Assembly (NCBI GenBank): GCA_951406725.2
Contig: OX597824.1
Coordinates: forward strand, 8,990,001 to 9,054,000
Direction of reading: 5' to 3'
Length of the DNA: 64,000 nt
Source: Octopus vulgaris
Taxonomy: Eukaryota
In this document: piece after piece, positions 15,287 to 18,720 of the stretch
Layout: each line of letters opens with the position of its first letter
Position numbering within the stretch: position 1 is the first letter of the stretch
Program-made: the position numbers and the translations under genes
The notes under the pieces: model-generated
What the model saw: the letters and a program-made list of their open reading frames with translations, nothing else
Told to the model about the DNA's origin: nothing
Database searches by the model: none

Positions 15287-15349
<63 letters not shown>

Positions 15350-15353
15350 TATG

Positions 15354-15545
15354 TAGGTCCCGGGTTGAGTCGGGGTTAACCACAGTAAATAAGGTACTCA
15401 ATACATAGCAGAGTAAATTAATTTATTATATAGAAGGAGCTTCTACAGGACTAGAACTGTTTCATTCAAAAGAAATCATCAGGAAGCTTCCTGATGATTT
15501 CTTTTGAATGAAACAGTTCTAGTCCTGTATTCTATATAATAAATA
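15354..15545 (-). mobile_element. PLE-like terminal fragment with fold-back inversion, in (TA)n
   Basis: Palindrome 15421-15544 centred on AAGCTT (15484-15489); contains the hammerhead below; TA arrays on both sides. Confidence 0.75.
15435..15492 (-). ncRNA. Type I hammerhead ribozyme (predicted)
   Basis: Minus strand agcttc-CTGATGA-t.ttc.tttt.gaa.t-GAAA-cag.ttctagtc.ctg-TA-gaagct. Intact core, 6-bp stem I, 3-bp stem II (U.U at base), 4-bp stem III, GUA cleavage triplet. Confidence 0.75.
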
Positions 15546-15901
15546 TATATATATAAATATATATATATATGTGAGTGTGTGTGTATGTGTATTTTTTGGC
15601 CTGCCCGTTTATCCGGTGAGTGGCGTCCTTCGAGGCCAAAAACGATACAAATCGAATTGTGACCAGTGATGTGTTACAACATCTGATAGTCTGGTCTATA
15701 TTATGTTATAGAAGCTATTAACAACTTGAAAACGCTTTATTGTTTTTTCCGAAACAGGACCTTAAATACAGGATCGCAATAAATATTAACTGTACTTTGT
15801 GATGCTGCTCTCTAAGGGAGAGTCAGGTTAATAACAGTGAGATGGGGGCACAGTTTACGCATTCTGCAAGCGACTTACATGTGGGTGAATAGCTTATGTG
15901 T

Positions 15902-18324: not shown

Positions 18325-18720
18325 GTAGCGAGCTGGCAGAATCGTTTACACGCCGGACGAAATGCTTAACTGCATTTCGTCTGCCGCTACGTTCTGAGTT
18401 CAAATATCGCCGAGGTCGACTTTGCCTTTCATCCTTTCGGGGTCGATAAAATAAGAACCAGTTACGCCCTGGGGTCGATATAATCGACTTAATCCGTTTG
18501 TCTGTCTTTGTTTGTCCTCTCTGTGTTTAGCTCCTTGTGGGTAGTAAAGAAATAGGTATTTCACCCGTCTTAACATTCTGAGCTGAAAGTACCCCACGGT
18601 CGACTTTCCATGTCTTCCTTTCTGGTTCGATAAAATAAGTACCGGTCAAGTTCCATGGTCAATGTAAGCGTCTTCCCCCTCTCCTCAAAAACTGTTGACC
18701 CTATGCTAAAATATTTAAGA
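18325..18720 (+). mobile_element. SINE B long variant (18325-18556) joined to 5'-truncated older B copy
   Basis: Junction ...gaaatag|gtatttcacccgtcttaacattctgag... Confidence 0.85.

What the first reader, a model, noticed from the sequence alone, without database searches (positions are those of the whole stretch)
15354..15545. Fully paired hammerhead ribozyme at the axis of a fold-back; the mirror copy loses 8 nt exactly after the cleavage triplet
Seen: the minus strand reads agcttc-CUGAUGA-u(uuc uuuu gaa)u-GAAA-cag(uucuaguc)cug-UA-gaagcu, giving all core nucleotides, stems I-III and a GUA site (predicted cut between 15444 and 15443). The palindrome axis (AAGCTT) lies in the 5' strand of stem I, so the plus strand carries a second core (15491-15529). 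That copy lacks gaagctcc precisely after GTA, which removes the 3' strand of stem I. Established: type I hammerheads occur in Penelope-like pLTRs and retrozymes, and PLEs often have inverted 5' segments. Inference: the deletion may be a footprint of reverse transcription jumping at a self-cleaved RNA end. This ribozyme has a real stem III, so unlike minimal PLE hammerheads it might cleave as a monomer.
Basis: partly seen in the sequence, partly recalled or inferred. Interest (0 to 1): 0.78.

Follow-up and report, generated by a model that had tools for sequence, protein, structure and literature searches.

The report
Penelope retrotransposon head-to-head stub with hammerhead
This 190-base palindrome is one of hundreds of identical stubs of a young Penelope-like retrotransposon, likely made when two reverse transcripts, primed from opposite DNA strands, ran off the predicted capped start of an uncut RNA and joined; the eight-base gap that drew attention occurs in this copy alone.

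Summary
The sequence is as described, with one correction: the pair closing stem II (10.1/11.1) is a U·U mismatch. The palindrome is a stub of a young Hydra-clade Penelope-like element in (TA)n: 8,915 hammerhead arms, 340 loci with this exact axis. Full units carry RT and GIY-YIG downstream of the hammerhead.

The 8-nt gap is unique in the genome. Neither 5' nor 3' ends pile up at the cut, so the cleavage-footprint idea is not supported.

What is real is a wall of 5' ends at the first base of stem I, in both arms. It lies 29 nt behind a conserved TATAAAT and is often preceded by an extra G. A second family shows a similar wall. The two arms end at two fixed sites (+66, +134), and in long copies each arm often holds sequence the other lacks.

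Best reading: twin priming from both target strands on an uncut, capped RNA, with run-off at the start site and joining at AGCT. This bears on an open question about Penelope head-to-head inversions. Ribozyme activity is untested and predicted to be weak as a monomer.

The parts
15353..15488 (-). Long ('tailed') arm: element positions -2 to +134, where +1 is window 15486. In full units this is the 5' leader ahead of the ORF, whose ATG lies about 180 nt after +1.
15438..15488 (-). Type I hammerhead. Stem I 15488-15483 with 15443-15438; core 15482-15476 and 15463-15461; stem II 3 bp with a U·U closing mismatch; stem III 4 bp with an 8-nt loop holding a CUAG palindrome; predicted cut at 15444/15443.
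15429..15447 (-). Predicted 8-bp hairpin that competes with stem I and covers the cleavage triplet (pair probability 0.76-0.89).
15353..15420 (-). 68-nt tail: the stretch between the two inferred reverse-transcription starts (+66 and +134).
15485..15488 (.). Self-complementary AGCT shared by both arms: the junction, the first bases of stem I and the inferred transcription start.
15485..15544 (+). Short inverted arm (-2 to +66) with the second core. The 8-nt gap (+44 to +51) lies between 15529 and 15530 and is private to this copy.
15291..15352 (.). (TA)n target repeat, left flank.
15545..15570 (.). (TA)n target repeat, right flank.

Best explanation
This is a head-to-head stub of a Hydra-clade Penelope-like retrotransposon, likely made by two cDNAs primed from opposite strands of a (TA)n target that ran off the predicted capped 5' end of an uncut element RNA and joined through AGCT. 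Shown: the family, its RT and GIY-YIG ORF, the hammerhead in the 5' leader, the two fixed 3' ends (+66 and +134), the wall of 5' ends at -2, the TATAAAT at -29 and the frequent extra G. Inferred steps: (1) RNA polymerase II starts at the first base of stem I. (2) The element protein nicks both target strands and starts one cDNA at +134 and one at +66 in its own 5' leader. (3) On a transcript made from that promoter both cDNAs run off after 136 and 68 nt. (4) Their 3' ends pair at AGCT, or join by microhomology, and are filled in. Long copies would come from read-through transcripts of tandem units, primed at the downstream leader. The hammerhead is probably real but mostly uncut in the RNA that gets copied. 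The 8-nt gap is a private lesion or an assembly error.
For: Family and ORF. Exact axis at 340 loci. In 100 tail-anchored copies, 69 are mini inversions and 15 are perfect AGCT palindromes. 5' ends at -2: 26 of 100 tailed arms (28 scored, 2 were native variants) and 24 of 73 inverted arms; only 6 and 5 end between -3 and -139. 11 tailed and 9 inverted ends at -2 lie in non-palindromic junctions, so the wall does not need AGCT pairing. TATAAAT stands at -29 in nearly all native variants although the spacer differs. G precedes AGCT in 18 of 25 non-native, non-palindromic arms, or 12 of 19 after dropping 6 where the other arm could supply it (p = 5e-4 against 0.25). A preprint reads such a G at L1 5' junctions as a cap trace (PMC11702581). 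16 of 17 fetched pairs have one tailed and one untailed end. In 8 of 12 pairs with ORF on one arm only, the ORF is on the untailed arm, so neither arm is nested in the other. Contigs of independent public runs show the same loose ends at -2 and +66. A second family, 43% identical in protein, has 31 of 86 arm ends within 7 nt just 5' of helix I and only 2 between -10 and -62. In vitro, a Penelope protein cuts and extends both strands from two internal starts and uses uncut RNA (PMC11167929).
Against: No RNA end was observed: no raw RNA reads were on offer, and contigs cannot show starts. The wall is also a YAG, like the splice acceptor at helix I in D. virilis Penelope (PMC4209133), whose promoter is described as TATA-less (PMC2377424). 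The extra G could instead be templated by the cDNA folding on its own stem I complement. For symmetric stubs like this one, snap-back of a single cDNA gives the same sequence and explains why arms agree at subfamily sites (42 of 42 at +16, 21.5 expected). Later deletions inside palindromes can mimic asymmetric junctions. The wall in the second family is spread over 7 nt, with a weaker TATA and no clear extra G. Both samples come from the start of contig C1 and from one exact anchor each.
Confidence: 0.7

Rival explanations
1. Snap-back or self-priming: one cDNA (or an antisense RNA, as proposed in print) folds back at AGCT and copies itself, and the new strand joins the target at the AT-rich +58 to +66 stretch.
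For: Perfect palindromes are common. Arms share subfamily and private variants. Self-priming on an antisense template is the published reading of Penelope palindromic junctions (PMC3846280).
Against: 8 of 12 long pairs have the ORF on the untailed arm and the tail on the other. 5 of 69 mini copies have non-overlapping arms. Inverted arms carry their own extra G, and L142 has it on both arms.
Confidence: 0.15
2. Two cDNAs are made as in the best explanation, but the wall is not a transcription start. It is a 3' splice site, or an RNA end trimmed by a 5' exonuclease up to helix I.
For: All native variants have AG at -2/-1, mostly after pyrimidines, and the second family has TTCTAG there. The D. 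virilis intron ends at helix I.
Against: No constant upstream exon precedes the wall. Ends include the AG in the first family and reach 1-7 nt beyond it in the second. The TATAAAT spacing and the extra G fit a cap.
Confidence: 0.1
3. One reading: the 8-nt gap records reverse transcriptase jumping across a self-cleaved RNA, and cleavage shapes these insertions.
For: The gap starts exactly at the cut. 3 of the first 100 of 363 listed deletions also start there (5 nt), and 85 remove G+44 and/or G+47 (counted by eye). 33 copies join one arm's stem I 3' strand to the other arm's start.
Against: The gap is a singleton. There is no pile-up of ends at the cut. The single-G losses are not listed at 1% or more in four independent runs and are enriched in tight palindromes (10 of 90 against 2 of 86, p = 0.03), as expected of long-read errors in inverted repeats (PMC7229812, abstract start only). 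The 33 junctions also follow from 6-nt microhomology.
Confidence: 0.12
4. The 190-bp palindrome spreads as its own non-autonomous unit from one master copy.
For: Many copies are near-identical.
Against: Junctions are highly varied. Palindromes occur in several subfamilies, each with both arms matching. The RNA would be a 58-bp or longer duplex that blocks the ribozyme.
Confidence: 0.05

Closest known systems
Hydra clade of C-terminal EN+ Penelope-like elements (PMC8557442; section 11 and supplement rows read)
   Same: DKT motif, CxCX5C linker, no CCHH pair, CxxC and CxH around the conserved E and N, hammerhead, (TA)n targets, inverted 5'-truncated copy with a tail.
   Different: The unit is 5.2 kb, against 'generally under 3 kb'. 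The tail is 68 nt, against 30-40. It is not the catalogued Hydra-1_Obim, and the hammerhead text was not found in the supplement held.
PAc (Poseidon) of Anolis in vitro (PMC11167929, parts 1-2 of 4)
   Same: Both strands extended, two internal starts that define the tail, AT-rich targets, uncut RNA as template, hammerhead near the ORF start.
   Different: The parts read do not explain inverted copies or report run-off at a start site. Here the two starts sit on opposite arms of each insertion.
Head-to-head inverted pLTRs with junction palindromes in Adineta vaga Penelopes (PMC3846280, passages)
   Same: Inverted pLTR, optional tail, palindrome at the junction, putative TATA plus initiator.
   Different: Explained there by self-priming on an antisense template and left open. 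The data here favour two cDNAs on a sense RNA.
L1 twin priming (PMC11702581, passages)
   Same: A second primer from the other target strand gives a 5' inversion; an extra G marks full-length 5' ends.
   Different: In L1 the two cDNAs cover adjacent parts with 1-10 bp overlap. Here they overlap by up to 68 nt in stubs and by kilobases in long copies, and both 3' ends are fixed.
Axolotl retrozyme ribozyme HHR_Amex2 (PMC7229834, section 15)
   Same: Type I hammerhead with a U·U mismatch at the base of helix II and a stable helix III. It cleaves 22% in an hour as a monomer and far better as a dimer.
   Different: That ribozyme lies in tandem 350-nt retrozyme repeats. This one lies in the leader of an autonomous element.

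Membership tests
EN+ Penelope-like element | Single ORF with RT and C-terminal GIY-YIG endonuclease | tested here: met
   Uninterrupted frame of 722 codons in L222, with motifs matching the published Hydra alignment by eye. Pfam gave only a weak RVT_1 hit on one fragment (E 0.003) and no RT or GIY-YIG hit on the whole ORF.
EN+ Penelope-like element | Partial-tandem pseudo-LTRs, inverted 5'-truncated copy, tail | tested here: met
Hydra clade | DKT, CxCX5C linker, CCHH absent, CxxC and CxH flanking E and N | tested here: met
   Read from the alignment against the definition.
Hydra clade | RWK motif | tested here: inconclusive
   RWR in this family, RWK in the second family.
Hydra clade | Insertion into (TA)n | tested here: met
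Hydra clade | Placement in the clade by RT phylogeny | not tested
   No tree was built.
Neptune clade | CX2-5CxxC linker and CCHH pair inside GIY-YIG | tested here: not met
   The linker is CxCX5C and only one cysteine lies between the two motifs.
Type I hammerhead ribozyme | Conserved core and three stems | tested here: met
   Common variants in 131 arms fall in N7 (0.28 per site) and loop II (0.15), not in stems II and III (0.005-0.01); differences near the 5' edge include junction artefacts. The second family keeps the pairing with different letters.
Type I hammerhead ribozyme | G10.1-C11.1 pair closing stem II | tested here: not met
   U·U in 131 of 131 arms; A·A in the second family.
Type I hammerhead ribozyme | Match to an Rfam hammerhead model | tested here: not met
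Type I hammerhead ribozyme | Self-cleavage after GUA | not testable with these tools
   Predicted share of the active fold is about 4% alone and 0.5-1% with downstream sequence; the dimer helix III scores -14.8 kcal/mol.
Non-LTR retrozyme | Head-to-tail tandem repeats of 150-450 bp, non-coding | tested here: not met
   Stubs are head-to-head, and the tandem unit is 5.2 kb with an ORF.

The most novel reading that the evidence does not exclude
Hydra-clade Penelope elements start transcription at the first base of their hammerhead and prime two cDNAs, one per target strand, inside their own 5' leader. The ordinary transcript then yields only palindromic run-off stubs, thousands per genome, and only read-through of a tandem unit yields a full copy. 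This would explain at once the head-to-head inversion, the tail, and why Penelope elements need partial tandems. It would also show that in vivo the copied RNA is uncut.
Probability: 0.55. Interest if true: 0.72.

Novelty: new variant of a known kind. Interest (0 to 1): 0.55.

Why it matters
How Penelope-like elements form head-to-head inverted ends is stated as open in the papers read (PMC3846280; PMC8557442). Thousands of young, near-identical stubs give a natural record of the intermediate. They predict a start site, two priming sites and the joining rule to the nucleotide, and each can be tested by 5' RACE and by the existing in vitro assay. The stubs also scatter hundreds of perfect hairpins of about 65 bp through the genome, which could yield double-stranded RNA when read through (inference).

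Tried and rejected
Rfam found no hammerhead; the microRNA hits are below gathering scores and reflect the hairpin alone.

One search's 40 of 40 mirrored copies overstates the rate, because the query included bases past the axis. I used the tail-anchored sample instead. My first label, Neptune, was dropped.

It is probably an assembly error, though this is not proven. The apparent link of the longer loop III palindrome to ends at the cut (7 of 12) also appears at the control site (4 of 8), against roughly a quarter of the arms listed.

No RNA holder was listed on record and no raw reads were offered, so expression, start site and cleavage were not observed. could not test the 8-nt gap. Earlier findings of this scan returned nothing.

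Literature searches found no paper describing the wall or twin priming in Penelope elements. Most subscription papers are outside the library. Of supplements, only the one held for PMC8557442 was searched; others may bear on novelty.

Full report
Coordinates. +1 is the first base after the axis (window 15486 on the minus strand, 15487 on the plus strand). The predicted cut is +43/+44.

Observation. The core, stems I and III, the GUA, the axis, the second core and the 8-nt gap are all present. Stem II is 3 bp closed by U·U, so the ribozyme is not fully paired. Rfam finds no hammerhead. Folding gives the active form about 4% alone and 0.5-1% once an 8-bp downstream hairpin over the cut site can form; a dimer through the loop III palindrome scores -14.8 kcal/mol. 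These are predictions without tertiary contacts.

What it belongs to. The window lies in a 2.8-Gb genome. My guess that it is an octopus rests on recalled features and was not tested. Exact-pattern counts give 8,915 hammerhead arms, 2,007 tails of one subtype, 340 loci with the same 30-nt palindrome and 714 arms with another base before AGCT. Following the ORF found in long copies gave full units of about 5.2 kb: promoter-like region, hammerhead, tail, ATG about 180 nt after +1, an ORF of about 713 codons, then 2-3 kb of microsatellite-rich sequence. The protein has the marks given for the Hydra clade and follows the published alignment by eye; it is not Hydra-1_Obim. No tree was built.

The 8-nt gap. 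It occurs in 1 of 30 closest copies and once in the genome. 363 arms have some deletion in the 16 nt around the cut. Of the first 100 listed, 85 lose G+44 and/or G+47 and 3 lose +44 to +48 (counted by eye). The single-G losses occur in either arm, rarely in both. They are enriched in tight palindromes (10 of 90 against 2 of 86) and are not listed at 1% or more in four public runs where other indels are, so I read them as probable assembly errors. No 5' end falls at +44 among 100 tailed and 73 inverted arms. Arms ending at the cut number 12, against 8 at a control site. 33 copies join through the stem I complement (8 of 10 fetched), which cleavage or plain microhomology would both explain. The gap itself could not be checked in other runs.

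The wall. In the first 100 tail-anchored copies, 69 are mini inversions, 14 are long and 17 have no inverted arm within 400 nt. 26 tailed arms (28 scored; L103 and L175 are native variants) and 24 inverted arms end at -2, and 4 more of each at -1. Only 6 and 5 end between -3 and -139. 15 copies are perfect palindromes; the other 20 ends at -2 lie in irregular junctions. Native copies have TATAAAT at -29 across diverged spacers. Of 29 non-native, non-palindromic rows I dropped 4 (2 non-element matches, 2 native variants); G precedes AGCT in 18 of the remaining 25, or 12 of 19 unambiguous ones. Independent contigs show loose ends at -2 that continue as the inverted arm (24 contigs in X1, 12 in X4) and at +66 into TA, so the fold-back is not an assembly artefact. 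A second family (4,457 exact matches; 43% identical protein) has the same two-ended, head-to-head stubs. Of its 86 arm ends, 31 lie at -3 to -9 just 5' of helix I, 2 between -10 and -62, 27 further upstream and 26 downstream.

Two cDNAs, not one. 16 of 17 fetched pairs have one tailed and one untailed end. In 8 of 12 pairs with ORF on a single arm, the ORF lies on the untailed arm (L237 was left out as tail-to-tail, L068 and L061 as not fitting the class). A strand that copies itself cannot hold what its template lacks. The arms agree at subfamily sites (42 of 42 at +16; 57 of 59 at +59), so both come from the same RNA or source locus, or were homogenised later. For this particular symmetric copy, snap-back cannot be excluded.

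Mechanism. The reading is transcription from the first base of stem I, nicking of both (TA)n strands, priming at +66 and +134, run-off at the cap, and joining at AGCT. The start site, the cap and the enzymatic steps are inferred. They agree with in vitro results on an anole element (PMC11167929, parts 1-2 of 4) and differ from the antisense self-priming proposed for such junctions (PMC3846280, passages). A splice acceptor at the same place is the main alternative for the wall (PMC4209133, parts 1-2 of 4).

Known and new. Inverted truncated copies, tails, hammerheads in pseudo-LTRs, pairs of hammerheads on opposite strands and Hydra elements in (TA)n are all described (PMC8557442: passages, sections 10-11 and supplement search; PMC4209133). 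A U·U-closed helix II has a tested precedent that works better as a dimer (PMC7229834, section 15). My searches found no account of the wall or of twin priming in these elements. Also seen: PMC2377424 and PMC11702581 in passages, 10.64898/2026.07.22.740005 part 1 of 5, and PMC7229812 as a listing.

Verdict. The structure around it is a known kind of element that records its own insertion mechanism unusually clearly.

Noticed in passing
L238-L249, L254-L323: A second Hydra-like family with many intact 727-codon frames, a 3.36-kb unit and a leader hammerhead with an A·A mismatch at 10.1/11.1. It makes the same head-to-head stubs, with axis CT|AG.
   Followed up: yes
L066:3593-6871: An unrelated 1,092-codon frame with RVT_1 and weak GIY-YIG hits, lying between two copies of this family: probably another Penelope-like element nested in it.
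   Followed up: no
L064:2699-5024 (minus strand): A broken RT-like frame of yet another family between two inverted arms.
   Followed up: no
L219, L220, L214, L233, L237: Many copies break the ORF at the same place (506-codon plus 225-codon frames): a shared frameshift in one subfamily or a recurrent assembly error.
   Followed up: no
L096, L142, L181: Junctions between the arms contain filler: 167 nt of foreign DNA in L096, and short templated copies of element sequence in others.
   Followed up: partly
window 15640-15700: A short, very high-copy repeat beside the insertion.
   Followed up: no
window 12705-12989; 13032-13254 and 18330-18552: An 85-nt tandem repeat in three near-identical copies, and a dispersed SINE-like repeat in several copies.
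   Followed up: no
supplement of PMC8557442, place 7: A published record just before Hydra-1_Obim has a hammerhead like the second family's, with a TATA run about 30 nt before a CCATT just 5' of helix I. The same layout may hold in other species.
   Followed up: no
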